This document shows, piece by piece, positions 49,612-62,303 of a DNA stretch of 64,000 nucleotides. The stretch is taken from positions 1-64,000 of the IMG/VR virus record IMGVR_UViG_3300009082_000018, one strand, 5' to 3'. Under the pieces are notes generated by a model, which worked only from the letters and a program-made list of their open reading frames with translations, was not told where the DNA came from and searched no databases. The position numbers and the translations under genes are program-made. This DNA comes from a virus. Numbering within the stretch: the stretch's first letter is position 1; each line of letters starts with the position of its first letter.

Positions 49612-49616
49612 GTTCT

Positions 49617-49688
49617 GGGTGGTTCGTCCAACTGGAAGGGCCCCGGGCCGTAACCCCGGCTATCTAGGTTCGACTCCTAGACCACCCA
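49617..49688 (+). tRNA. tRNA-Tyr(GTA), atypical (C33, short variable loop)
   Basis: GGGTGGT/ACCACCC; CCGGG-CCGTAAC-CCCGG; TTCGACT. Confidence 0.7.
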
Positions 49689-49755
49689 TTGGAGATCGAC
49701 TATGTGCTTGCAGGAATTCATGCACCGCTTGAAACAGAGGCTTGAGTCAGATCAA

Positions 49756-49828
49756 GCCTCCGTGGTGCAGCGGCTAGCACACATGGCTTTTACCCATCGA
49801 GACGCAGGTTCGAGTCCTGCCGGGGGCA
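49756..49828 (+). tRNA. tRNA-Lys(TTT)
   Basis: Hand-folded cloverleaf; loop CTTTTAC. Confidence 0.85.
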
Positions 49829-49840
49829 CTGAAGGAAGTC

Positions 49841-49912
49841 GGGCTCGAAGTGTTATGGTTGCACAGCGGACTCTTAATCCGACAAGTGAGGGTTCAACTC
49901 CCTCCGGGCCCA
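49841..49912 (+). tRNA. tRNA-Lys(CTT)
   Basis: Cloverleaf; loop CTCTTAA. Confidence 0.85.
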
Positions 49913-49923
49913 TTGAGAATTGA

Positions 49924-49995
49924 TCCGGGTTAGCCTAGCGGCAAAGGCAGCGCGCTCTGACCGCGCCATCGAAGGTTCGAGTCCTTCACCCGGAA
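49924..49995 (+). tRNA. tRNA-Gln(CTG)
   Basis: Cloverleaf; U1-A72; loop CTCTGAC. Confidence 0.9.
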
Positions 49996-50041
49996 CTGCG
50001 CAACTGGCCCTTGACAATTGAATAGCTGGTCGTGGTCGTTT

Positions 50042-50116
50042 GGTGAGGTCGTCCAATCGGTAGGACACCAGACTGAAAATCTGGGAACGACGGTTCGACT
50101 CCGTCCCTTGCCACCA
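50042..50116 (+). tRNA. tRNA-Phe(GAA), CCA encoded
   Basis: Cloverleaf; loop CTGAAAA. Confidence 0.9.
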
Positions 50117-50119
50117 CTT

Positions 50120-50190
50120 GGGCCTGTAGCTTGAAGGTCGAGCCACCGGCTCATAACCGGTTGGTGAGTGTTCGATTCACTCCGGGCCTA
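50120..50190 (+). tRNA. tRNA(CAT), probably Ile2
   Basis: Cloverleaf; loop CTCATAA; GGGCCT acceptor. Confidence 0.75.
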
Positions 50191-50194
50191 TTGA

Positions 50195-50265
50195 TCGGGT
50201 GTCGTCTAACGGTAGGGCCGTGGACTTTGGATCCATGAATAGAGGTTCGACTCCTCTCACCCGAA
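50195..50265 (+). tRNA. tRNA-Gln(TTG)
   Basis: Cloverleaf; loop CTTTGGA. Confidence 0.85.
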
Positions 50266-50267
50266 AA

Positions 50268-50340
50268 CGGGGAGTAGGGCATTGGATGACCCGCTTGCTT
50301 TGGGAGCAAGAATAAGCTGGTTCGATTCCAGTCTCCCCGA
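50268..50340 (+). tRNA. tRNA-Pro(TGG)
   Basis: Cloverleaf; C1-G72; loop TTTGGGA. Confidence 0.85.
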
Positions 50341-50351
50341 CTGATCTTCAT

Positions 50352-50426
50352 TCCAGAGTAGCTCAAAGGTGGAGCGGCGCCCTGTTAAGGCGATGGCTGG
50401 GGGTTCGAGTCCCTCCTCTGGAGCCA
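50352..50426 (+). tRNA. tRNA-Asn(GTT), CCA encoded
   Basis: Cloverleaf; loop CTGTTAA; G73. Confidence 0.9.
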
Positions 50427-50438
50427 GTAAAGTTGATC

Positions 50439-50510
50439 CGCCTCGTGGCTCAGTGGTCCGAGCAGTCGGCCGATAACCGACAGGCGAGAGTTCGATTCTC
50501 TCCGAGGCGA
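50439..50510 (+). tRNA. tRNA-Ile(GAT), C33
   Basis: Cloverleaf; loop CCGATAA. Confidence 0.85.
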
Positions 50511-50522
50511 AAAGAAGATCAT

Positions 50523-50595
50523 GGCGGACGAAGCCAAACGGTGCGGCGCCTGACTGTGGATCAGGTTCTAGGGGGTTCGACTCCCCTCGTTCGCC
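50523..50595 (+). tRNA. tRNA-His(GTG)
   Basis: G-1:C73; loop CTGTGGA. Confidence 0.9.
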
Positions 50596-50696
50596 CTCGC
50601 ACATGTTATGCTCCTGCGCAGGTCTACCAGAGCGGGCCAGATCGCCCTTGAATGGGCGTGGAGGGCGGCGCAGGCGGGCCAGGGCGGGGAGCGCTT

Positions 50697-50768
50697 GGGG
50701 ACGTAGTGATAGCGGGAGCACACGGCGTTCGCAACGCTGAAGTGAGGGTTCGACTCCCTCCGTCTCCA
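50697..50768 (+). tRNA. tRNA-Ala(CGC)
   Basis: G3:U70; loop TTCGCAA. Confidence 0.9.
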
Positions 50769-50774
50769 CTCTCT

Positions 50775-50845
50775 GGGCTCATAGTGAAATGGGATCACGC
50801 AGCCTCGGCAAGGCTGAATCCCGGGTTCAACTCCCGGTGGGTCCA
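50775..50845 (+). tRNA. tRNA-Ala(GGC), C33
   Basis: G3:U70; loop TCGGCAA. Confidence 0.85.
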
Positions 50846-50850
50846 CTCTT

Positions 50851-50933
50851 GGAGGGTACTGAGGAATGGTCCTCAACATGGTCCGAACCCATGGGCGGCC
50901 GAAAGACCGGGCGTTCGATTCGTCTACCCTCCG
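50851..50933 (+). tRNA. tRNA-Ser(CGA), C33
   Basis: Long variable arm; G73; loop TCCGAAC. Confidence 0.8.
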
Positions 50934-50961
50934 CTGATTGTTGATCTGAAAATTGTACCAT

Positions 50962-51032
50962 GGACGCGGAAGCTGTCGGATGGCTGACCGGCTGTCTACC
51001 GGTTGAAGAGGGTTCAACTCCCTTCGCGTCCG
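50962..51032 (+). tRNA. tRNA-Asp(GTC)
   Basis: Cloverleaf; loop CTGTCTA; G73. Confidence 0.8.
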
Positions 51033-51033
51033 C

Positions 51034-51107
51034 CGCAGGGTTGAGGAGAGGTCTACCTCGCCTGGCTCATAACCAGGAGCACGTTGGTTCAAATCCAACC
51101 CCTGCTA
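51034..51107 (+). tRNA. tRNA-fMet-like (CAT)
   Basis: C1xU72 mismatch; loop CTCATAA; TTCAAAT. Confidence 0.8.
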
Positions 51108-51181
51108 GCGCGGTTGAGGTGTTTGTGGTTGCACGCGGCGTTGCCAACGCTGAAGACAGGGTTCGACTCCCTGCAGCCGCA
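51108..51181 (+). tRNA. tRNA-Gly(GCC)
   Basis: GCG acceptor; loop TTGCCAA. Confidence 0.85.
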
Positions 51182-51183
51182 AC

Positions 51184-51256
51184 GCCGGAGGTCGAGGGTT
51201 CAAATCCCTCCAGGCTCCCGCAAGGGACCTGTAGCTCAGTCAGGTAGAGCACCGGC
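51184..51256 (+). ncRNA. Circularly permuted tRNA-like RNA, open at the anticodon
   Basis: GCCGG-AGGTC-T arm-CAGGCTCCC-GCAA-GGGACCTG-TA-D arm-A-CCGGC. Confidence 0.8.
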
Positions 51257-51260
51257 TTCT

Positions 51261-51345
51261 GGAAGGTGACCCGTAATGGTACGGGAGCTGGTTGCTAACC
51301 AGTCAGGGGGTAACGCCCCAGCAGGTTCGATTCCTGCACCTTCCG
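51261..51345 (+). tRNA. tRNA-Ser(GCT)
   Basis: Long variable arm; loop TTGCTAA. Confidence 0.9.
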
Positions 51346-51352
51346 CCGGATT

Positions 51353-51436
51353 GGAGAGCGAGAAGCAGGGTGCGCAACTGCGTTGGAAGCGCAGGAGGGT
51401 TGAAAGGCCCGCTGGGTTCGATTCCCAGGCTCTCCG
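51353..51436 (+). tRNA. tRNA-Ser(GGA)
   Basis: Long variable arm; loop TTGGAAG; weak D stem. Confidence 0.8.
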
Positions 51437-51529
51437 CTAGATGAGTCGACTGACACGGAGACGGCAGCTGATCCCGGTCCCCAAGGGCGTCTTACGGCTG
51501 ACGGGCTGTCAGAGCACGACTCATCGCAT

Positions 51530-51601
51530 GCGGGTGAGATGTTAACGGTTGCATGTCAGTCTTCCAAACTGAATGACGGAGTTCAACTCTCCGCACCCGC
51601 A
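51530..51601 (+). tRNA. tRNA-Gly(TCC)
   Basis: Cloverleaf; loop CTTCCAA. Confidence 0.9.
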
Positions 51602-51615
51602 CCGTATAGTTGATC

Positions 51616-51694
51616 CGGGATGTAGCTCAGCCAGGGAGAGCGCTCGCTTCGGGAGCGAGAGGTTTCGTGGGTTCGAACCCCACCATCCCGACCA
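51616..51694 (+). tRNA. tRNA-Pro(CGG), CCA encoded
   Basis: Cloverleaf; loop TTCGGGA. Confidence 0.9.
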
Positions 51695-51696
51695 AT

Positions 51697-51770
51697 GCCA
51701 AGGTAGCCCAACAGGAAGTGGCACACGCCTCAGGCGCGTGACAGTGAGGGTTCGAATCCCTTCCTTGGCA
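51697..51770 (+). tRNA. tRNA-Leu(CAG), short variable loop
   Basis: Cloverleaf; loop CTCAGGC; A73. Confidence 0.85.
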
Positions 51771-51775
51771 TCTTC

Positions 51776-51847
51776 GCCGCCAAAGCGTAAAGGGTGACGC
51801 GCCGGCTTCGTACACCGGAGAACCCAGTTCAACTCTGGGTGGCGGCT
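51776..51847 (+). tRNA. tRNA-Thr(CGT)
   Basis: GCC acceptor; loop TTCGTAC. Confidence 0.8.
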
Positions 51848-51849
51848 CT

Positions 51850-51982
51850 GGGTGGACCGACAGAGGTTGGATTATCCATGCTAAGGACGAGGTCGCGGGT
51901 TCGAATCCCGTCGGGCTCCTTCGGGGGCCCGTGGCTCAGCGGTAGAGCGCGTAAAACTCCAGCTTCAACCCCTTGTTCACCC
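51850..51982 (+). ncRNA. yrlA: Y RNA (YrlA type) inside the tRNA array
   Basis: GGGTGGAC(C)GA/TTGTTCACCC bulged-C stem; permuted tRNA module (T arm, UUCG-capped acceptor, D arm). Confidence 0.85.
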
Positions 51983-51986
51983 TACT

Positions 51987-52057
51987 GCCGGATGATGACT
52001 CCTGGGGAGTCAGCGCACTTGTAAGGCGCCAGGGCGGTTCGACTCCGACATCCGGCT
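51987..52057 (+). tRNA. tRNA-Thr(TGT)
   Basis: GCC acceptor; loop CTTGTAA; atypical D arm. Confidence 0.75.
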
Positions 52058-52069
52058 CTGATCTGAAAT

Positions 52070-52141
52070 GGCCTTGTCTGCTAACGGTAGGCAACCTGGT
52101 TCTCACCCAGGAAACGATGGGTTCAACTCCCTCCAAGGTCA
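52070..52141 (+). tRNA. tRNA-Glu(CTC)
   Basis: Loop TTCTCAC; bulged T stem. Confidence 0.8.
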
Positions 52142-52146
52142 CTGAC

Positions 52147-52218
52147 GGCCCCATCTGCTAACGGTAGGCACCGTGGTTTTCACCCACGCAACGGCGGGTT
52201 CAACTCCCCCTGGGGTCA
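52147..52218 (+). tRNA. tRNA-Glu(TTC)
   Basis: Loop TTTTCAC; bulged T stem. Confidence 0.8.
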
Positions 52219-52222
52219 CTGA

Positions 52223-52295
52223 GGGCGCTTCGTCTAGCGGCAAGGACCCCTGCTCGACACGCAGGTGATCGCCGGTTCGAGTCCGGCAGTGCCCA
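52223..52295 (+). tRNA. tRNA-Val(GAC), C33
   Basis: Cloverleaf; loop TCGACAC. Confidence 0.85.
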
Positions 52296-52299
52296 CTTC

Positions 52300-52371
52300 G
52301 GGGAGTTGGTGAAACTGGGATCACACGGCCCTTGCACGGCTGGATCAGGGGTTCAAATCCCCTACTCTCCA
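52300..52371 (+). tRNA. tRNA-Ala(TGC)
   Basis: G3:U70; loop CTTGCAC. Confidence 0.9.
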
Positions 52372-52437
52372 CTACCTGCACAGGTCATTGCCGATATGAC
52401 TAGTCTGTCAGAAGGGATGGTCTGTGCGGGGTCGATT

Positions 52438-52510
52438 GCCGCCAAAGTCCACGTGGTCGGGACGCCTGCTTGGTACGCAGGAGGGCAGAGTTCGATTCTC
52501 TGTGGCGGCT
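52438..52510 (+). tRNA. tRNA-Thr(GGT)
   Basis: Cloverleaf; loop TTGGTAC. Confidence 0.85.
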
Positions 52511-52568
52511 CCGCTGATTATCAGCATTTCACTTATGAAGATCACTGATAATCACTGATGAGACTGAT

Positions 52569-52639
52569 GGGGTTGAGGCTGAGGTAGCCGGACGGTCTCC
52601 AAAACCGTCGTCGAGGGGGTTCGATTCCCTCCAACCCTG
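52569..52639 (+). tRNA. tRNA-Trp(CCA)
   Basis: Loop CTCCAAA; G73; short D arm. Confidence 0.8.
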
Positions 52640-52644
52640 CTGAT

Positions 52645-52715
52645 GAGTCCGTGTCCGAGAGGCGAGGTACCTGGCTGCAACCCAGGTCACGGGGGTTCAA
52701 ATCCCTCCGGACTCT
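52645..52715 (+). tRNA. tRNA-Cys(GCA)
   Basis: Loop CTGCAAC; U73. Confidence 0.9.
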
Positions 52716-52720
52716 CTGAT

Positions 52721-52796
52721 GCACCCGTGGTCCAAAGGATGGGCACCGGTCCTCTAAACCGGATCCATGCTGGTTCGAGTCCAGCCGGGTGTGCCA
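52721..52796 (+). tRNA. tRNA-Arg(TCT), C33, CCA encoded
   Basis: CCGGT-CCTCTAA-ACCGG; A20. Confidence 0.85.
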
Positions 52797-52797
52797 A

Positions 52798-52870
52798 GGT
52801 CCCGTGGTCTAAAGGATGGGCACCTGTTTCCTAAACAGGATCAATGCAGGTTCGAGTCCTGCCGGGATCA
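52798..52870 (+). tRNA. tRNA-Arg(CCT)
   Basis: Loop TTCCTAA. Confidence 0.9.
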
Positions 52871-52874
52871 CTGA

Positions 52875-52948
52875 GCTGCGATAGTGTAGGGGACTCTGCA
52901 CGGTGCTCTCCGAAAGCACAGGTCTGGGCTCGACTCCCAGTCGCAGCA
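52875..52948 (+). tRNA. tRNA-Arg(CCG)
   Basis: Loop CTCCGAA; T loop CTCGACT (C54). Confidence 0.8.
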
Positions 52949-52950
52949 TT

Positions 52951-53023
52951 GGGCGGTTCTCCTAGCGGAATGGAACCTGACCTACACTCAGGAATAATGG
53001 GGGTTCAACTCCCTCACCGCCCA
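52951..53023 (+). tRNA. tRNA-Val(TAC), C33
   Basis: Loop CCTACAC. Confidence 0.8.
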
Positions 53024-53027
53024 TCAT

Positions 53028-53099
53028 CTGCCCATGGTCTAAAGGAAGGGCCCCTGACTACGGATCAGGTGCATGCAGGTTCGAGTCCTGCTGGGCAGG
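53028..53099 (+). tRNA. tRNA-Arg(ACG)
   Basis: Loop CTACGGA. Confidence 0.9.
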
Positions 53100-53105
53100 C
53101 TACAC

Positions 53106-53180
53106 GCCGGGGTGGCGCAAATGGAAGATCGCTCCAGACTTAGGATCTGGCTGTTGAGGGTTCGAATCCCTTCCCCGGTA
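53106..53180 (+). tRNA. tRNA-Leu(TAG), short variable loop
   Basis: Loop CTTAGGA. Confidence 0.85.
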
Positions 53181-53183
53181 CTT

Positions 53184-53257
53184 GGCAGCAGGGAGGAGAG
53201 GGACTCCTCACCGCTCTCATAAAACGGGAATTGCTGGTTCGATCCCAGCTGCTGCCA
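53184..53257 (+). tRNA. tRNA-Met(CAT), probably elongator
   Basis: GGC acceptor; loop CTCATAA. Confidence 0.75.
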
Positions 53258-53260
53258 CGA

Positions 53261-53333
53261 GCCCTCGTAGCCCAAGAGGAAGCGGCATCGCCTTAAAAGC
53301 GATCAAGTGGGGGTTCGAGTCCCTCCGGGGGCA
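53261..53333 (+). tRNA. tRNA-Leu(TAA), short variable loop
   Basis: Loop CTTAAAA. Confidence 0.8.
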
Positions 53334-53336
53334 CAC

Positions 53337-53409
53337 CGAGGAGTAGGGCATTGGATGACCCGCTCGGATGGGGTCCGAGAGCAAGCTGGTTCGATTCCAG
53401 TCTCCTCGA
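53337..53409 (+). tRNA. tRNA-Pro(GGG)
   Basis: Loop ATGGGGT; paralog of Pro(TGG). Confidence 0.85.
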
Positions 53410-53418
53410 TCTTGATAT

Positions 53419-53492
53419 GCCAGGGTAGCCCAATCGGTAGTGGCACCAGCCCGAGGCGCTGGACAGTGTGGGTTCGAATCCCATCCCTGGTA
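53419..53492 (+). tRNA. tRNA-Leu(GAG), C33, short variable loop
   Basis: Loop CCGAGGC. Confidence 0.85.
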
Positions 53493-53496
53493 CTAT

Positions 53497-53571
53497 GGCG
53501 CGGTAGCCCAACTGGTAGGAGGCACCGGCCTCAAGCTCCGGACAGTGAGGGTTCGAATCCCTCTCGCGCTA
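53497..53571 (+). tRNA. tRNA-Leu(CAA), short variable loop
   Basis: Loop CTCAAGC. Confidence 0.85.
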
Positions 53572-53611
53572 CGACTTGTGAAAACGACCACGATCTGCTA
53601 TTGGTGCAATC

Positions 53612-54121
53612 ATGCAAACGCTCGTACTCGACCAAGGCTACCAGCCGATCAACACCGTCCCTTGGACCAAGGCGATGGGATACATCGCCCGTGGCAAGGT
53701 CGACGTGCTGGAGGAGTACGAGCAGGAGGTCCACTTCAACATGGGCATGCCGGCGGTGGTGAGGCTCAACCATCGCATCAGTGCCAGCAAGAAGAGGATC
53801 AAGTTCTCTCGTCAGAATGTGCTGGCGAGGGACAAGTTCAGTTGCCAGTACTGCGGCGCCCACGGACGTGACGTGGTTCTAACCTTCGATCACATCATCC
53901 CCAGGTCTCGGGGTGGTCGAACAGAGTGGGAGAACATCGTCATGGCCTGCCAGGAGTGCAATGCACGAAAGGCTGACCTGACGCTGAGAGAATCGGGAAT
54001 GCGTCTGCGGACGCAGCCTGTTCGACCGACGTGGGTGCCCACTTTCAACGTCGCTCTGCGGGATGCTGGCAACATCCCACCAGAGTGGCGGAACTACTGG
54101 ACAACAGAGCTGCAGCCGTAG
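53612..54121 (+). CDS. HNH endonuclease (McrA/HNH_5 type)
   Basis: LVLDQGYQP...NVLARDKFSCQYCG...TFDHIIPRSRGG...WENIV.AC..CN..K. Confidence 0.9.
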   Translation: MQTLVLDQGYQPINTVPWTKAMGYIARGKVDVLEEYEQEVHFNMGMPAVVRLNHRISASKKRIKFSRQNVLARDKFSCQYCGAHGRDVVLTFDHIIPRSRGGRTEWENIVMACQECNARKADLTLRESGMRLRTQPVRPTWVPTFNVALRDAGNIPPEWRNYWTTELQP

Positions 54122-54184
54122 AACCTTGTCCGGAATACTTCCTTGTCCTCTACGTAGCGGACAGGGAGGAAAACCGGACAACTT

Positions 54185-54267
54185 GGAGGGTGCCGCCGGT
54201 TGGTTGGCAACACGGTTTGAACCCGTGGGTGGTCGCAAGGCTAGGGGTTCGACTCCTCCACCCTCCG
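54185..54267 (+). tRNA. tRNA-Ser(TGA)
   Basis: Long variable arm; loop TTTGAAC; G73. Confidence 0.85.
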
Positions 54268-54298
54268 CTCTTCCCGCCAAATCCTTCATGATTATTTT

Positions 54299-54338
54299 TG
54301 ATTCTTTTGCTTGACAAAGAATCATTCATAGGGATAAT
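54299..54338 (+). promoter_or_regulatory. Sigma70-like promoter of the Y RNA-Ro operon with overlapping inverted repeat
   Basis: TTGACA 54311-54316, 16 nt, GATAAT; IR TGATTCTTT/AAAGAATCA. Confidence 0.7.
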
Positions 54339-54343
54339 AGGAT

Positions 54344-54432
54344 CATGAGGGACCGACTGAGTTAGGTTATCAAACTCTCACTTTGATTGGGGCCTCTGGC
54401 CCCGCTCCTAGCTCAACAACTTGTTCCTCATG
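54344..54432 (+). ncRNA. Y RNA-like gene 2 (no tRNA module)
   Basis: CATGAGGGAC(C)GA/TTGTTCCTCATG; second stem; two small hairpins; followed by T6. Confidence 0.75.
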
Positions 54433-54453
54433 TTTTTTGATCTGAAAAGGAGA

Positions 54454-54586
54454 ATTGAGGGACCGACGATTTGGGTTACCTTGGACCTGTTGGGGCTGGT
54501 TCAATTCCAGCTCGGTCACTTAGGTGATCGATAGTGTAGAGGCAGCACAGCAGGAGTGTTCCCAGATCAACAACTTGTTCCTCAAT
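54454..54586 (+). ncRNA. yrlA: Y RNA-like gene 3 (YrlA type)
   Basis: ATTGAGGGAC(C)GA/TTGTTCCTCAAT; T arm GCTGG-TTCAATT-CCAGC, capped acceptor, D arm. Confidence 0.8.
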
Positions 54587-54599
54587 CTTTATTGGCTGT

Positions 54600-54670
54600 G
54601 AGAGTGGACCGCTGATCTTGGGTTACCTTCTTTGGTGAACAACCCCAGGGTCGATCTTTTGTTCGCTCTC
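54600..54670 (+). ncRNA. Y RNA-like gene 4 (minimal)
   Basis: GAGAGTGGAC(C)G/TGTTCGCTCTC; GATCTTGGG/CCCAGGGTC; GGTTACC motif. Confidence 0.7.
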
Positions 54671-54696
54671 CTTTTGTTCGCCCATGGAGGTGGACC

Positions 54697-56298
54697 GTGC
54701 AGAACTTCGGTGGCTCGTTCTCGACTGTTAGCACTCCGCAGACCCAGCCGACCCCGGGCAAGAACGAAATCAAGATGCGCTCCGGTGGCTACGGCTTCGC
54801 CGTGGATGACTGGGTGCGCCTCAACCGGTTTTTGATCATGGGCTCGGAGGGCGGAACCTACTACGCCTCGGAACGCGAGATGACCAAGGTCGCCAGCGAT
54901 GCGGCCATGAGGCTGGTCAGACAGAATGGTGTGGCGGTGGTCAACCACGTCGTCGAGATCAGCCAGTCCGGTCGTGCGTTCAAGAACGATCCGGCGCTGT
55001 GGGTTCTGGCCATGGCATCGCAGCTCGGTGATCAGGCTACCAAAGAGCTGGCGTACAAGTCGCTGCCGTTGGTGGCACGCATCTCGACCCACCTGTTCCA
55101 CTGGCTGCAGTACACCAAGGCCTTCGGGCACCAGGGAGGCAACGGCTTCAAGCGGGCAGTGGCACGATGGTACCTGGAGCAGACACCGGCTCATCTGGCT
55201 CACCAGGTCGTGAAGTATCAGGCTCGTGATGGGTGGTCGCACCTGGACGCTCTTCGGATCGGTCACCCGACTCCGTCGGATGAGCTGTTCCAGGCAATCT
55301 TCCACTACGTCAAGCACGGCAGGACCAAAGATCTGTCGGCGGTTGCGGCGGTTCCGGAAGAGCTGACGCTCATCTGGGCGTGGGAGAAGATCAAAGAGGC
55401 AAAGAACGCCGATGAGGTCGCCAATCTGATCAGTGCTTTCAAGTTGCCGCACGAGTGCGTGCCGAACGAGTGGAAAGACCAGCAGGGGGTCTGGGGTGCG
55501 TTGTTGAACTCGATGGCACCGCACGCCATGCTGCGGAACCTGGGCAAGATGACCTCGGTGGGTCTGCTAGAGGGCAAGTCGGCGGCGGTGCAGAAGGTCG
55601 TGGACACGCTGACGGACATGGAGCGTCTGAAGAAGGCCAGGATGCACCCGATGTCGGTGCTGACTGCGTTGGCGGTCTACCGGACGGGCCGTGGCATCAA
55701 GGGCTCGCTGAGCTGGAACCCGAACCGTCGGGTGATCGACGCGCTCGATGAGGCCTTCTACCTGTCCTTCGGGACAGTGACGCCGACGGGCAAGCGGCTG
55801 CTTCTGGCCCTGGACGTATCAGGGTCGATGGGATCGCCGTGCGCTGGTTCTCCGCTGACCTGCAGGGAGGCGACGGCAGCCATGGCGATGGTCACGGCAC
55901 GGACGGAAGAGGACTACGAGATCGTCGGCTTCTGCGACAGCCTGAAGACGCTGAGCATCTCGCCGAAGCAGCGTCTGGATGACGTCGTGGAGTCGATCTC
56001 CCATCTGTCCTTCGGAGGCACGGACTGCAGCTTGCCGTTCCGTTGGGCGCAGTCCAAGCAGCAGAAGTTCGACGGTGTTATCACCTACACCGACAATGAG
56101 AGTTGGGGAGGTCCAGTGAAGGTTCACCAGGCAATGCAGCAGTATCGCCAGAAGATGGGCACCACAACCAAGGGAGCCTTCGTGGCCTTTGCGGCCAATG
56201 AGTACTCGGTGGCAGACCCGGACGACGCGGGTCAGATGAACTTCGTGGGCCTGGACGCCAACCTGCCACAGGCGCTCTCCAGCTTCATTGGAGAGTAG
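54697..56298 (+). CDS. rsr: Ro60-related TROVE + vWA domain RNA-binding protein
   Basis: RLNRFLIMGSEGGTYY, KYQARDGWSH.D, MLRNL, HPM, LDVSGSM, GGTD, TDNE; GGAGG RBS. Confidence 0.95.
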   Translation: MQNFGGSFSTVSTPQTQPTPGKNEIKMRSGGYGFAVDDWVRLNRFLIMGSEGGTYYASEREMTKVASDAAMRLVRQNGVAVVNHVVEISQSGRAFKNDPALWVLAMASQLGDQATKELAYKSLPLVARISTHLFHWLQYTKAFGHQGGNGFKRAVARWYLEQTPAHLAHQVVKYQARDGWSHLDALRIGHPTPSDELFQAIFHYVKHGRTKDLSAVAAVPEELTLIWAWEKIKEAKNADEVANLISAFKLPHECVPNEWKDQQGVWGALLNSMAPHAMLRNLGKMTSVGLLEGKSAAVQKVVDTLTDMERLKKARMHPMSVLTALAVYRTGRGIKGSLSWNPNRRVIDALDEAFYLSFGTVTPTGKRLLLALDVSGSMGSPCAGSPLTCREATAAMAMVTARTEEDYEIVGFCDSLKTLSISPKQRLDDVVESISHLSFGGTDCSLPFRWAQSKQQKFDGVITYTDNESWGGPVKVHQAMQQYRQKMGTTTKGAFVAFAANEYSVADPDDAGQMNFVGLDANLPQALSSFIGE

Positions 56299-56301
56299 CT
56301 C

Positions 56302-56511
56302 ATGCCCCGCCGCCCAGAAGACCAACCGCAAACCCCACCTGAGGTCTTCACCGTCCGCCTGCAAGGTCAGGATGCGGCGGACTTCCGTCGTCTGCAATCA
56401 GCAGCTGCAGCTGAGGTCCCTCCAGGAGCCCGGCAGACTCGTCACAGCTTTGCTGTCTGGTTGCTGAAATTGGGGATGAAAGCGATCGAGACGGTCAAGC
56501 GGAAGCGCTAG
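56302..56511 (+). CDS. Small putative DNA-binding (RHH-like) protein
   Basis: VFTVRL strand followed by two helices; GGAG RBS. Confidence 0.45.
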   Translation: MPRRPEDQPQTPPEVFTVRLQGQDAADFRRLQSAAAAEVPPGARQTRHSFAVWLLKLGMKAIETVKRKR

Positions 56512-56634
56512 CTGTTGCTGCTGCCTAGGTCTCCAGCAGGTCCCACACCATCCCTAGAGATGACGTTTCCGTGCTCGTCCACGTCCACGTTCAGTGCTGG
56601 CAGCTCACCACTGCTGATGTAGTTTCCAATTCTC

Positions 56635-56904
56635 CTATGGTTTCTTTTCTGGCTCTCCCGATGGTGGTTCTGGCTCCTTTGGAGTCGGCACAGGCTTGGA
56701 TACCTGAAAGACCTTGCACCGGACGGCTAGGAACAGCTCTCCTTCCTGCACACCAGTGATCCGCATTTTGGAATCGTTGTCAAGCTCGATCCTATAGCTC
56801 TCCTGGTGCAGCATCTGATGGAAGATCGCCAGCAGCTGCTCAGACATCTGCTTCGGAGATAGGTTTCGTTTACCTGAACGAGGACGTTTTTGTTGTGCAG
56901 ACAT
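56635..56904 (-). CDS. Hypothetical protein
   Basis: Last gene of the minus-strand operon. Confidence 0.5.
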   Translation of the reverse strand: MSAQQKRPRSGKRNLSPKQMSEQLLAIFHQMLHQESYRIELDNDSKMRITGVQEGELFLAVRCKVFQVSKPVPTPKEPEPPSGEPEKKP

Positions 56905-59901: not shown

Positions 59902-61764
59902 CTAACCAAATGTCATGAGTGGCACGCGCCGCAATCGTTCCAAGGCGATGTTGCAGAAGTTCCACGCATGCACGCTGTGCGGATCCAGACCGAGGTTAAC
60001 CCACTCCATTCTGAACGTGCCAGTTTCCTCGTTGACGACAGCCTTTTGCCGAACGATTTTCGTGGCATGCAAGTAGAAGTAGTTGCGGAAAATCGCCTGG
60101 GGTTCGTAGCGGCCGGTCTCAAGGCCACGGGCCATTTGGATCAGCGTGCTTGGGGCAGGCCACTCGCAATTGCGGTGGGCAATCTCAGCAAGTGCGAAAT
60201 CGATCGACATGTAACGGTTGAGAACGCAAGTGTACTTGAACTTGAGTCCTGGTCCACCCTTGCGGACGTTCATCTTGTCCTTGGGACGGTCTCCCCACTG
60301 CACAATGTCTCTCTGAGTGCCATGGCTATCGAGGTACCAGGCCACAAAGACACGTCGTGGGAAAGTACGAGCGAAGTCGATCGCCTCATTGGAGTTAGGC
60401 ATGGCGTCGATGATGCACAGATCGACGTCGTACTCCTTCATCAATTGGTAGAGGCGCTTGAACGGAGTGATCCGCTGCCCACCTTCGTAGTACATCGGAT
60501 TCATGCTGTCGATGATCTCGTAATGGATTATTCTCTTCTTTCCAGGTTGGCGCTCCGCGATGACCACGTAGTTGTTGCCTGACATCTGGTCCACGCCCAT
60601 GGCGACCTGGCTCTTGCGGCCCTTGACAGGGCCCCACAGGATGTCTGTGTTCTCGCATGCGATCAGATCATCTGTGCTGACCGGGACGTTTTCAGCATCG
60701 ACGTATGGCTTGCCCAGCTTGGCGTTGTGGAACTCTTTCAGGTTTTGGGTCGTGGTAAAGGCACGCCAGATCTCTGCCGGCGATATGAACTTCGACATCA
60801 TCTGGTGGATGTGGTAGCTGGAGACGTCCACGCCAGGATTGTGCGGTATGAATCGGCCATTCTGGGGATCGTTGATCCTCATCTTGCAACGGGGGCATCG
60901 GTAGTAGATCTCCTTGTCAGTGATGGCCATGCAATCTGGCCACACCTCAGACAAGATCACTCCGTCAGGGCAGTTACACTTAGAGTGCCAGTAATTCTGA
61001 GTACCCTGAATGAACTGCCGGTGAATGTCCGCGTGTGGATAGCCGGCGGTGGAAACTTGCATGATCCATTTGAAGATGCTGTGGCTTACGCGTTCCCTCG
61101 CTTGGTCGATGTCCGCTGCATTCATCAGTCGGACTTCGTCGAAGGCTAGCATGTCAAATGGGGTAGAGTCCTTGGAGGCGACGCCGCCGAGGTGGCGCAT
61201 GTAGAGGGAAGACTTGGCTCCTACCTTTTTGAATCCGATGGTGTCAGTGTCTTGAACGGCATCAGCTAACTCTGGGTTGCTCATCACCAGGGGATAGAGC
61301 CGATCTTTGGACAGCAGGGCTACATCATCCTGGGTGGGGAAGAAGAAGCAAGCCTTGACCGAACGGTATAGGCAGAACCAGAAGAGCTTGAGCAGAACGA
61401 AGATCGTGGCACCCATCTGGGCGCTCTTCATTAGCACAAATTCCTTGTTTCGATCCAGATACATCGGAATAAGGTACTTGTGCGAGTCTATGTCAAACGG
61501 TTTGTGATCAACCTCGATACCTGTTGTGCAAGCCCATAGCAGGAAGTTCTCTTGCTTGAGGGCATTCAACTGGTCTGGGCTAACACTAGCCGGAGAGATT
61601 GAGCTGATACCTGAGAAGTCATGGGCCTGCTGCGATGGCATCAGGTTACCAAGGACATCTTGGATTGGCTGCTCGTCTTTCTTGATTTTTACGGCCTGCC
61701 GTGTCGGTTTGATCTTGACCGCTGTCCTTTTGGGAGGCGGGTTCTTCTTGATCTCTTCGTTCAT
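59902..61764 (-). CDS. Terminase large subunit (GpA-like)
   Basis: KSAQMGAT Walker A, FDEV Walker B, STA, C..C, GVD nuclease motif. Confidence 0.85.
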   Translation of the reverse strand: MNEEIKKNPPPKRTAVKIKPTRQAVKIKKDEQPIQDVLGNLMPSQQAHDFSGISSISPASVSPDQLNALKQENFLLWACTTGIEVDHKPFDIDSHKYLIPMYLDRNKEFVLMKSAQMGATIFVLLKLFWFCLYRSVKACFFFPTQDDVALLSKDRLYPLVMSNPELADAVQDTDTIGFKKVGAKSSLYMRHLGGVASKDSTPFDMLAFDEVRLMNAADIDQARERVSHSIFKWIMQVSTAGYPHADIHRQFIQGTQNYWHSKCNCPDGVILSEVWPDCMAITDKEIYYRCPRCKMRINDPQNGRFIPHNPGVDVSSYHIHQMMSKFISPAEIWRAFTTTQNLKEFHNAKLGKPYVDAENVPVSTDDLIACENTDILWGPVKGRKSQVAMGVDQMSGNNYVVIAERQPGKKRIIHYEIIDSMNPMYYEGGQRITPFKRLYQLMKEYDVDLCIIDAMPNSNEAIDFARTFPRRVFVAWYLDSHGTQRDIVQWGDRPKDKMNVRKGGPGLKFKYTCVLNRYMSIDFALAEIAHRNCEWPAPSTLIQMARGLETGRYEPQAIFRNYFYLHATKIVRQKAVVNEETGTFRMEWVNLGLDPHSVHAWNFCNIALERLRRVPLMTFG

Positions 61765-62303
61765 GACCGTCTTCCCGGGTCTTGGAACACTTCTCTATCC
61801 GTCAAGAATATGATCTCGTCAGCGGCGTTGTGCAGCAGACTCGAGGCGACATTCTGAAAAGTGATCACTTCAACTCGCTTGTTCAACCTCTTCAACCTCT
61901 CAAGCAACAGAGCGTAGTCACCGTCACCAGAAACCAGCACGAAGGTGTCGAAGGTATCGATGTCGCTGATAGCGTCAACGGCAATTCCAACATCCCAATC
62001 CGTGGCATACGGCTTGAGAAGACCTTTTTCGATCCTCATATCTCTGGTCTTCACTGTGAAACCAAGGTTGCGGAGTGATCGCAGGAAGCGAGCATTCTGA
62101 GCGGGCTGCTTGTCGCTGCCTTGGACGGTCACAGCATAGGCAACGATCTTCGCTTGTCGCGGCATGTTCGCGAACTGTCTGGAACAGATCAGCTGCTTCA
62201 GAGATGAGTAGCTGACCCTCGCGTCCCTGCCATGGATCTCCCGGCAGGAATGCCAGAGGTTGTTCACGTCGATGGCGACGTATGCACGCTCAGCCTGGCT
62301 CAT
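61761..62303 (-). CDS. NYN/LabA-like PIN-fold protein
   Basis: IDVNN, DWDV.IAVD, LVSGDGDY. Confidence 0.9.
   Translation of the reverse strand: MSQAERAYVAIDVNNLWHSCREIHGRDARVSYSSLKQLICSRQFANMPRQAKIVAYAVTVQGSDKQPAQNARFLRSLRNLGFTVKTRDMRIEKGLLKPYATDWDVGIAVDAISDIDTFDTFVLVSGDGDYALLLERLKRLNKRVEVITFQNVASSLLHNAADEIIFLTDREVFQDPGRRS

What the first reader, a model, noticed from the sequence alone, without database searches (positions are those of the whole stretch)
51182..51260. Free-standing circularly permuted tRNA with no anticodon loop
Seen: the 3' half (GCCGG, variable loop, near-consensus T arm, acceptor strand) precedes the 5' half (acceptor strand, near-consensus D arm, CCGGC). The halves are joined by a GCAA tetraloop, and the RNA ends fall where the anticodon loop would be. 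It has the YrlA module topology but no Ro-binding stem. Known: permuted tRNA genes occur in some algae and archaea. Inference: an uncleavable, unchargeable elbow mimic that decoys tRNA-targeting defence enzymes, or a ligase substrate. Joining the flanks could give a TTCT-(A)AC loop, which is speculative.
Basis: partly seen in the sequence, partly recalled or inferred. Interest (0 to 1): 0.75.

Follow-up and report, generated by a model that had tools for sequence, protein, structure and literature searches.

The report
Handle-less tRNA mimic in phage array
One slot of this phage's 43-gene tRNA row holds a conserved small RNA gene shaped like a tRNA with a sealed amino-acid end and no anticodon: the tRNA-like "head" of known Y RNAs, but without the stem that docks them to the Ro60 protein, which suggests the head can work alone.

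Summary
Bases 51182-51260 fill the whole gap between tRNA-Gly(GCC) and tRNA-Ser(GCT). They fold into a circularly permuted tRNA body: a 5-bp end stem, variable loop, T arm, a sealed 8-bp acceptor hairpin with a bulged C and a GCAA loop, and a D arm.

Rfam's YrlA model matches only its tRNA-like part (39 bits, positions 23-85 of 114). No Ro60-binding helix is present and there is no room for one. The same phage carries Ro60 and four true Y RNAs with that helix.

It is not a decayed remnant:
- A related phage (terminase 88% identical) keeps it in the same slot, with compensatory changes and a GCAA-to-UUCG loop swap.
- That relative has neither Ro60 nor any of the four Y RNAs at the matching positions.
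- Comparable handle-less modules sit 2-3 nt after a tRNA in an unrelated uncultured phage and in mycobacteriophages Rey, Aziz and GenevaB15. Rey's complete genome has no Ro60.

The idea that the ends are joined to make a decoding tRNA is not supported. The decoy idea is untested.

Earlier notes of this scan report similar elements in other phage genomes. I found no paper describing them. Verdict: a new variant of the YrlA kind.

The parts
51110..51181 (+). tRNA-Gly(GCC). Its 3' maturation would set the 5' end of the mimic, 2 nt downstream.
   Evidence: ARAGORN; Rfam tRNA 45.9 bits
51182..51260 (+). Whole handle-less permuted tRNA mimic (79 nt, here called m1), filling the inter-tRNA spacer
   Evidence: Sequence; fold; YrlA local match; segment table
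51184..51188 (+). End stem, 5' strand (GCCGG). Corresponds to anticodon-stem positions 39-43.
   Evidence: Pairs with 51252-51256 in the minimum-energy fold; segment table
51189..51193 (+). Variable loop AGGTC. C48 is the partner of G15 in the Levitt pair.
   Evidence: The same AGGTC is found in the L405, Rey and Aziz modules.
51194..51210 (+). T arm: GAGGG / TTCAAAT / CCCTC
   Evidence: covariation across five modules
51211..51231 (+). Sealed acceptor hairpin: CAGG-C-TCCC / GCAA / GGGA-CCTG. C 51215 is bulged; the GNRA tetraloop is 51220-51223.
   Evidence: The relative has UUCG in place of GCAA and an A.A mismatch in place of the bulge.
51232..51251 (+). U8-A9, D arm (GCTC / AGTCAGGTA / GAGC) and A26
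   Evidence: D-stem pairs change on both sides across modules
51252..51256 (+). End stem, 3' strand (CCGGC). Corresponds to anticodon-stem positions 27-31.
51261..51347 (+). tRNA-Ser(GCT). RNase P cleavage at its 5' end would set the 3' end of the mimic.
   Evidence: ARAGORN
51850..51982 (+). Context: full Y RNA, here called Y-a, with a Ro helix (GGGTGGACCGA...CTTGTTCACCC) and a tRNA-like module that is 78% identical to the mimic's core
   Evidence: Rfam YrlA positions 1-114, 37 bits; fold; identity matrix
54347..54670 (+). Context: three more Y RNAs with the same Ro helix, at 54347-54429, 54457-54583 (this one has a tRNA-like module) and 54600-54670, behind a promoter-like site at 54311-54338
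   Evidence: Sequence; motif scans; Rfam 20.5 bits; promoter scan
54697..56298 (+). Context: Ro60/TROVE gene (533 aa)
   Evidence: PF05731, 101.7 bits; homologues named 60 kDa SS-A/Ro by their sources

Best explanation
It is a real, conserved gene for a stand-alone tRNA mimic: the tRNA-like head of a YrlA-type Y RNA without the Ro60-docking handle.

Shown:
- It occupies a tRNA slot in the array.
- It has every element of a tRNA body, with a sealed acceptor end and an open 5-bp stem where the anticodon arm would be.
- Its structure is kept by compensatory change in a related phage that lacks the Ro60 island.

Inferred:
- It is transcribed with the array and cut free by the events that mature its neighbours: 3' processing of tRNA-Gly and RNase P cleavage at tRNA-Ser. 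The product would be about 73-79 nt.
- It folds into the tRNA L-shape.
- Because it can neither decode nor (while sealed) be charged, it acts by occupying or recruiting a protein that recognises the tRNA body or elbow, independently of Ro60.

Which protein it binds is unknown. A tRNA repair, processing or degradation factor is the most plausible class.
For: - Fold and statistics.
- YrlA local match limited to the tRNA-like domain.
- ARAGORN calls the re-ordered halves a tRNA.
- All tertiary-contact bases are present (U8, A14, G15:C48, G18G19, T54-T55-C56-R57-A58): read.
- No Ro helix motif nearby, and only 2 nt and 4 nt to the flanking tRNAs.
- Ortholog in the same Gly-Ser slot of a phage with terminase 88% identical.
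- The ortholog is 67% identical, within the 51-100% range of the neighbouring true tRNAs.
- Against the ortholog there are three double-compensatory and two wobble changes, plus a GNRA-to-UNCG loop swap.
- That relative has no Ro60 or Y RNAs at the syntenic sites.
- Five aligned modules give 95% paired cells, with 8 of 16 pairs changed on both sides and 0 of 500 shuffles as good.
- Independent handle-less modules sit 2-3 nt after a tRNA in L405 and in phages Rey and Aziz.
- Rey's complete genome has no TROVE gene.
Against: - There is no expression data.
- Only one ortholog of this particular element was found.
- The L299 ortholog does not reach E <= 1 with Rfam YrlA.
- The L299 record is only 24% complete, so Ro60 may lie elsewhere in that phage.
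- The binding partner and any phenotype are unknown.
- The module closest in sequence is the head of Y-a in the same genome (78%), so gene conversion could inflate apparent conservation.
Confidence: 0.6

Rival explanations
1. It works with the phage's Ro60/Y RNA system in trans. For example, it competes with the tRNA-like heads of the two full Y RNAs for their unknown effector, and so tunes the Ro60 particle.
For: It lies 3.4 kb upstream of Ro60 and 600 nt from Y-a, whose head is 78% identical to it. Four Y RNAs share the genome.
Against: The relative L299 keeps the element but lacks Ro60 and all four Y RNAs at the matching sites. Rey has the same kind of element and no Ro60 in a complete genome. 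L405's record also has no Ro60.
Confidence: 0.15
2. It is a neutral by-product. A tandem tRNA pair that lost its outer halves, or a Y RNA that lost its handle, persists only because it is a harmless, nuclease-resistant spacer that still lets the neighbours be processed.
For: Tandem tRNAs naturally score as YrlA-like (PMC4201824; example). No function is shown.
Against: At 67% identity to its ortholog nearly all helices are still intact through compensatory changes, and a stable tetraloop was replaced by another stable tetraloop. The Rey and Aziz hairpins differ at almost every base yet both pair. The element recurs in unrelated phages.
Confidence: 0.12
3. It is a cis-acting processing signal: a tRNA-shaped punctuation mark that guides RNase P, RNase Z or RNase E cuts or stabilises the array transcript, with no role as a free RNA.
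For: It always lies 2-4 nt after a tRNA. tRNA-like structures serve as cleavage signals elsewhere, for example mascRNA (mentioned in 10.1101/312249).
Against: The other ~40 junctions of the array need no such element. The full tertiary core and sealed tetraloop exceed what a cleavage signal needs.
Confidence: 0.08
4. It is a permuted tRNA gene. The ends are ligated, the acceptor loop is opened by RNase P, and a decoding tRNA results, possibly an amber suppressor with a TTCTAAC loop.
For: The re-ordered halves are called a tRNA by ARAGORN, and a TTCTAAC loop would read as anticodon CTA. Permuted tRNA genes exist in some algae and archaea (general knowledge).
Against: The natural join gives a 6-nt loop here and a 5-nt loop in the ortholog, and the tails are not conserved: AC/TTCT here against GAC/AT. 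The 7-nt version needs tRNA-Gly's discriminator base. Stable tetraloops seal the acceptor end in both phages. No RtcB or Rnl2-type ligase was found. RNase P/Z ends (5'-P, 3'-OH) are not RtcB substrates (established enzymology).
Confidence: 0.03

Closest known systems
YrlA (Y RNA-like A), Rfam RF02553; Chen et al. 2014 (PMC4201824); structure in Wang et al. 2018 (bioRxiv 10.1101/312249)
   Same: Circularly permuted tRNA body with T arm, closed acceptor-like hairpin, D arm and all tertiary-contact bases. Encoded within 4 kb of a Ro60 gene. Local match to the family model at 39 bits.
   Different: No Ro60-binding helix formed by the 5' and 3' ends. The 'anticodon stem' is just 5 bp and ends 2-4 nt from the flanking tRNAs. 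Scores below the 69-bit gathering threshold. Kept in a relative that lacks the Ro60 island.
M. smegmatis YrlA, cut by RNase P and given CCA (PMC4201824)
   Same: tRNA-like head with an acceptor helix of tRNA-like length. The Rey homologue, in a phage of the same host, has a perfect 7-bp stem with an 8-nt loop.
   Different: Here the helix has 8 positions with a bulged C and a GNRA cap, so cleavage is uncertain. The known RNA still carries the Ro handle.
Permuted tRNA genes of Cyanidioschyzon merolae and some archaea
   Same: The 3' half is encoded upstream of the 5' half, and the halves join at the acceptor end.
   Different: Those are matured through a circular intermediate into a normal tRNA with a 7-nt anticodon loop. 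Here the joined tails give 6 nt or 5 nt and are not conserved, and the acceptor linker is a stable tetraloop.
Other tRNA mimics: tmRNA tRNA-like domain, viral 3' tRNA-like structures, mascRNA
   Same: L-shaped tRNA mimicry used outside decoding; some are released by tRNA-processing enzymes.
   Different: Those keep a free CCA or acceptor end, or are 3'-terminal elements. None is a permuted, sealed body sitting in a tRNA array slot.

Membership tests
YrlA (RF02553) | tRNA-like domain in permuted order (T arm, closed acceptor hairpin, D arm) | tested here: met
   cmscan alignment to model positions 23-85; fold
YrlA (RF02553) | [quoted passage not shown] | tested here: not met
   Only 2 nt and 4 nt separate it from the flanking tRNAs. 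The GGACCG...TTGTTC motif of the phage's four Y RNAs is absent here. Model positions 1-22 and 86-114 are unmatched.
YrlA (RF02553) | Score at or above Rfam's gathering threshold (69 bits) | tested here: not met
   39 bits. The phage's full Y RNAs are also below threshold, at 37 and 20.5 bits.
YrlA (RF02553) | Encoded within 4 kb of a Ro60 ortholog (criterion of Chen et al. 2014) | tested here: met
   The Ro60 ORF starts 3.4 kb downstream. This is not met by the L299 ortholog or by Rey.
YrlA (RF02553) | Bound by Ro60/Rsr in vivo | not testable with these tools
   Needs immunoprecipitation
tRNA (RF00005) | Contiguous cloverleaf with free acceptor ends and a 7-nt anticodon loop | tested here: not met
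   No tRNA call at 51182-51260. Only the artificially re-ordered sequence is called a tRNA.
Permuted tRNA genes (C. merolae type) | 3' half upstream of 5' half | tested here: met
Permuted tRNA genes (C. merolae type) | Joining the transcript ends restores a canonical, conserved 7-nt anticodon loop | tested here: not met
   6-nt TTCTAC here and 5-nt ATGAC in the ortholog

The most novel reading that the evidence does not exclude
The tRNA-like head is an autonomous functional unit that phages carry in their tRNA arrays to engage a still unknown tRNA-body-binding factor in tRNA repair, turnover or defence. Y RNAs then arose, or still arise, by fusing this head to a Ro60-binding handle. This genome would show both states side by side: the free head, and Y-a with a 78%-identical head 600 nt away.
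Probability: 0.3. Interest if true: 0.8.

Novelty: new variant of a known kind. Interest (0 to 1): 0.62.

Why it matters
What the tRNA-like domain of bacterial Y RNAs does, and what it binds, is an open question (PMC4201824; 10.1101/312249). A natural, conserved version without the Ro60 handle shows three things. It coexists with Ro60 and four Y RNAs in one phage. It is kept in a relative that lacks that island. It is present in cultured mycobacteriophages that have no Ro60. Together these argue that the head has a Ro60-independent role.

It also gives a minimal ~75-nt bait for finding the partner protein. Rey and Aziz grow on M. smegmatis, so the question is directly testable. The element further offers a plausible intermediate between tandem tRNA genes and Y RNAs, and it marks a feature that tRNA finders and phage annotation miss or mislabel.

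Tried and rejected
- **Exact and degenerate DNA patterns for orthologs.** These found only the L299 record in viral contigs and nothing in genome contigs.
- **Ro60 as a probe for relatives.** The single protein found nothing. A Ro60 alignment gave 160 Ro60 loci at 42-52% identity in viral and metagenome contigs. These hold many YrlA-type modules, but none abuts tRNAs.
- **Module-only Rfam hits in other Ro60 phages.** They turned out to be full Y RNAs with basal stems or a tandem-tRNA false positive.
- **Two generic T-arm-to-D-arm pattern scans.** Most hits were tandem tRNAs or Y RNAs with stems. Only L405 was handle-less.
- **Distant pairing to supply a Ro handle.** No such motif lies near the element. 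The long hairpin at 51438-51529 lacks the Ro helix motif.
- **MAFFT alignments.** They shifted the end stem and part of the L299 D arm. The formal pair count therefore used only the T stem, D stem and acceptor columns, and the rest was parsed by segment lengths.
- **Megablast of 19 kb of the phage against cultured phages.** No match.

Full report
**Where it lies.** The window is the first 64 kb of a 109.6-kb uncultured virus record estimated at 65% complete. A co-oriented array of 41 ARAGORN tRNAs runs from 49616 to 54268. Rfam adds two more that ARAGORN misses. The finding, 51182-51260, is exactly the spacer between tRNA-Gly(GCC) 51110-51181 and tRNA-Ser(GCT) 51261-51347.

Read directly, the 79 nt contain, in order:
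- a 5-bp end stem (GCCGG/CCGGC)
- the variable loop AGGTC
- a T arm (GAGGG/TTCAAAT/CCCTC)
- a closed hairpin in the acceptor position (CAGG-C-TCCC, GCAA, GGGA-CCTG), 8 bp with one bulged C
- U8-A9
- a D arm (GCTC/AGTCAGGTA/GAGC)
- A26

The bases that make tRNA tertiary contacts are all present: U8, A14, G15 with C48, G18G19, and T54-T55-C56-R57-A58.

Three tests say this is more than chance:
- RNAfold returns this four-way junction as both the minimum-energy and centroid structure: -34.1 kcal/mol, 61% of the ensemble, z = -2.8.
- Rfam's YrlA model matches 51186-51254 at 39 bits, E 6e-7 locally and 1.9e-8 over the record, but only positions 23-85 of 114, which is the tRNA-like domain.
- When the halves are re-ordered around any 7-nt loop, ARAGORN calls a tRNA.

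**There is no Ro handle, although the phage has them elsewhere.** The same phage encodes a Ro60/TROVE protein at 54697-56298 (homologues). It also has four Y RNAs that share a bulged helix GGACCG.../...TTGTTC:
- 51850-51982, inside the array, with a tRNA-like head; Rfam YrlA positions 1-114, 37 bits
- 54347-54429
- 54457-54583, with a tRNA-like head
- 54600-54670

The last three follow a strong promoter-like site at 54311-54338. The finding has no such motif and no space for one, with 2 nt to tRNA-Gly and 4 nt to tRNA-Ser. It is therefore the YrlA head without the handle.

**It is not a decayed remnant.** A terminase search found a related phage, L299 (IMGVR_UViG_3300035701_000135), with terminase 88% identical. 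Its tRNA array has the same gene order. Its Gly(GCC)-Ser(GCT) gap is 76 nt and has the same architecture.

The two copies are 67% identical. That lies within the 51-100% range of the orthologous true tRNAs; for example Gly-GCC is 68% and Thr-CGT 65%. The differences preserve structure:
- T-stem pair 2 changes from A-T to C-G.
- D-stem pairs 2 and 3 change on both sides, and pairs 1 and 4 change to wobble pairs.
- The GCAA tetraloop becomes UUCG.
- The mid-helix irregularity stays, as an A.A mismatch instead of the bulged C.
- The single-stranded tails are not conserved: AC/TTCT here against GAC/AT.

L299 has no counterpart of window 54270-56889, which holds the three Y RNAs and Ro60. Its two Thr genes are adjacent, so the array-embedded Y RNA is absent too. 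No TROVE gene was found in its 36-kb record. That record is only 24% complete, so absence from the whole phage is not proven. Rfam YrlA does not detect the L299 copy at E <= 1. Its identification rests on synteny, the structural parse and ARAGORN on the re-ordered halves.

On an alignment of five modules (this one, L299, L405 and the two Y RNA heads), the T, D and acceptor helices are 95% paired. Eight of 16 pairs change on both sides. No shuffle of 500 reaches this, and slid controls are far lower.

**It recurs in other phages.** A descriptor scan over about 5 Mb of fetched loci found 129 YrlA-type modules. Only three places had a tRNA within 10 nt of the end stem: this element, its L299 ortholog, and L405.
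- L405 is an uncultured phage with no tblastx similarity to this one. Its module starts 2 nt after tRNA-Asp and ends 23 nt before tRNA-Pro. It scores 31.8 bits with YrlA. No TROVE gene was found in its 62.6-kb record.
- BLAST of the element against cultured phages led to Mycobacterium phage Rey. An unannotated module sits 2-3 nt after tRNA-Asn, with a 6-bp end stem, AGGTC, a T arm, a perfect 7-bp hairpin with an 8-nt loop, and a D arm. YrlA matches positions 23-85 at 43.6 bits.
- Rey's complete 83.7-kb genome has no TROVE gene, but it does have RtcB about 5 kb downstream.
- Aziz and GenevaB15 carry the homologue. Its hairpin has an almost entirely different sequence and its T stem has two compensated pairs, yet the fold is the same. 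In GenevaB15 the D-arm half is annotated as tRNA-Leu(aag).

**How it most likely works.**
- Shown: a conserved, structure-constrained tRNA body in a tRNA slot, without a handle.
- Inferred: it is made from the array transcript. No promoter-like or terminator-like site flanks it. It would be released by the cuts that mature its neighbours, leaving a 5'-phosphate and a 3'-OH, and it folds as an L.
- With no anticodon loop it cannot decode. With a tetraloop-sealed, irregular acceptor helix it probably cannot be charged.
- The retained elbow and core are what many tRNA enzymes read, so the best reading is a Ro60-independent mimic that occupies or recruits such a factor.
- The published link of yrlA with rtcB in Salmonella (PMC4201824; PMC7790460 abstract), the RtcB in Rey and Aziz and the Ro60 here all point loosely to tRNA damage and repair. 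That is inference only.
- 'Uncleavable' is not established. M. smegmatis YrlA with a 7-bp stem is cut by RNase P and gains CCA, and Rey's copy has such a stem.

**What is rejected.** Ligation into a decoding tRNA is unlikely:
- The joined tails give 6 nt here and 5 nt in L299.
- They share no U33 or anticodon.
- The TTCTAAC (anticodon CTA) version needs tRNA-Gly's discriminator base.
- No RtcB or Rnl2-type ligase was found in this record.

An assembly artefact is excluded by the ortholog, which comes from a separate metagenome.

**Comparison with what is known.** Published work describes YrlA as a permuted tRNA-like domain joined to a Ro-binding stem and encoded beside Ro60, including in mycobacteriophages that have Ro60. 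That work discarded hits overlapping tandem tRNAs. Full-text searches found no paper on handle-less forms in tRNA arrays. Earlier notes of this scan report similar handle-less mimics in other phage genomes. These are unpublished AI notes. They agree with the Rey, Aziz and L405 cases that I found independently.

**What this window adds.**
- The free head and full Y RNAs coexist with Ro60 in one genome.
- The free head is 78% identical in its core to the head of the array-embedded Y RNA.
- A close relative keeps the free head without that island.

**Limits.**
- No expression or binding data exist.
- Only one ortholog of this exact element was found.
- Several records are incomplete.
- The samples of loci were chosen by sequence patterns, so frequencies cannot be estimated.

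Noticed in passing
window 51850-51982, 54347-54429, 54457-54583, 54600-54670; Ro60 54697-56298; promoter-like site 54311-54338: Four Y RNAs share a bulged Ro helix (GGACCG.../...TTGTTC). Two have tRNA-like heads and two do not. One lies inside the tRNA array and three lie in tandem behind a TTGACA-16-GATAAT site just upstream of Ro60.
   Followed up: partly
window 51438-51529; L299 reverse strand, rc 2740-2807: A long hairpin (GATGAGTCG...CGACTCATC, -36.7 kcal/mol) lies between tRNA-Ser(GGA) and tRNA-Gly(TCC). The related phage keeps it with a 22-nt internal deletion. It has no Rfam match and no Ro motif, and its role is unknown.
   Followed up: partly
window 50850-50933 and 52875-52948: ARAGORN misses two tRNAs. 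One is a Ser(CGA)-like gene with C instead of U at position 33. The other is an Arg(CCG) gene that Rfam finds at 53.5 bits. Their L299 orthologs are called Ser(cga) and Arg(ccg).
   Followed up: partly
window 50024-50644: ARAGORN's permuted 'tmRNA*' call spans eight tRNA genes and is almost certainly spurious.
   Followed up: no
window 53612-54121: An HNH endonuclease ORF (169 aa) sits inside the tRNA array. The related phage has it in the same place.
   Followed up: partly
window 50941-50952 and 54437-54448: The 12-mer TTGATCTGAAAA occurs exactly twice, both in the RNA-gene block (0.26 expected by chance with up to one mismatch). One copy follows the Ser(CGA)-like tRNA and the other precedes the third Y RNA.
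   Followed up: no
window 61761-62303 (-): A NYN-domain (PF01936) putative RNase gene lies next to the large terminase gene.
   Followed up: no
L545 (Mycobacterium phage GenevaB15, MF319184.1 57662-57730): The annotated tRNA-Leu(aag) overlaps the D-arm half of the handle-less mimic and is probably a mis-annotation. Rey and Aziz leave the same stretch unannotated.
   Followed up: partly
L331 rc/+ 696-828, L363, L309, L411 (uncultured phages): Permuted tRNA-like modules lie between tRNA genes and carry long basal stems without an obvious Ro-helix motif. No TROVE gene was found in these records, which are 24-81% complete.
   Followed up: partly
L544 about 1455-1600 (Xylella phage Usme LR743523.1 and ten Xanthomonas phages): An unannotated full YrlA-type RNA with a basal stem occurs in ~43.7-kb phages, upstream of a 440-aa hypothetical protein.
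   Followed up: no
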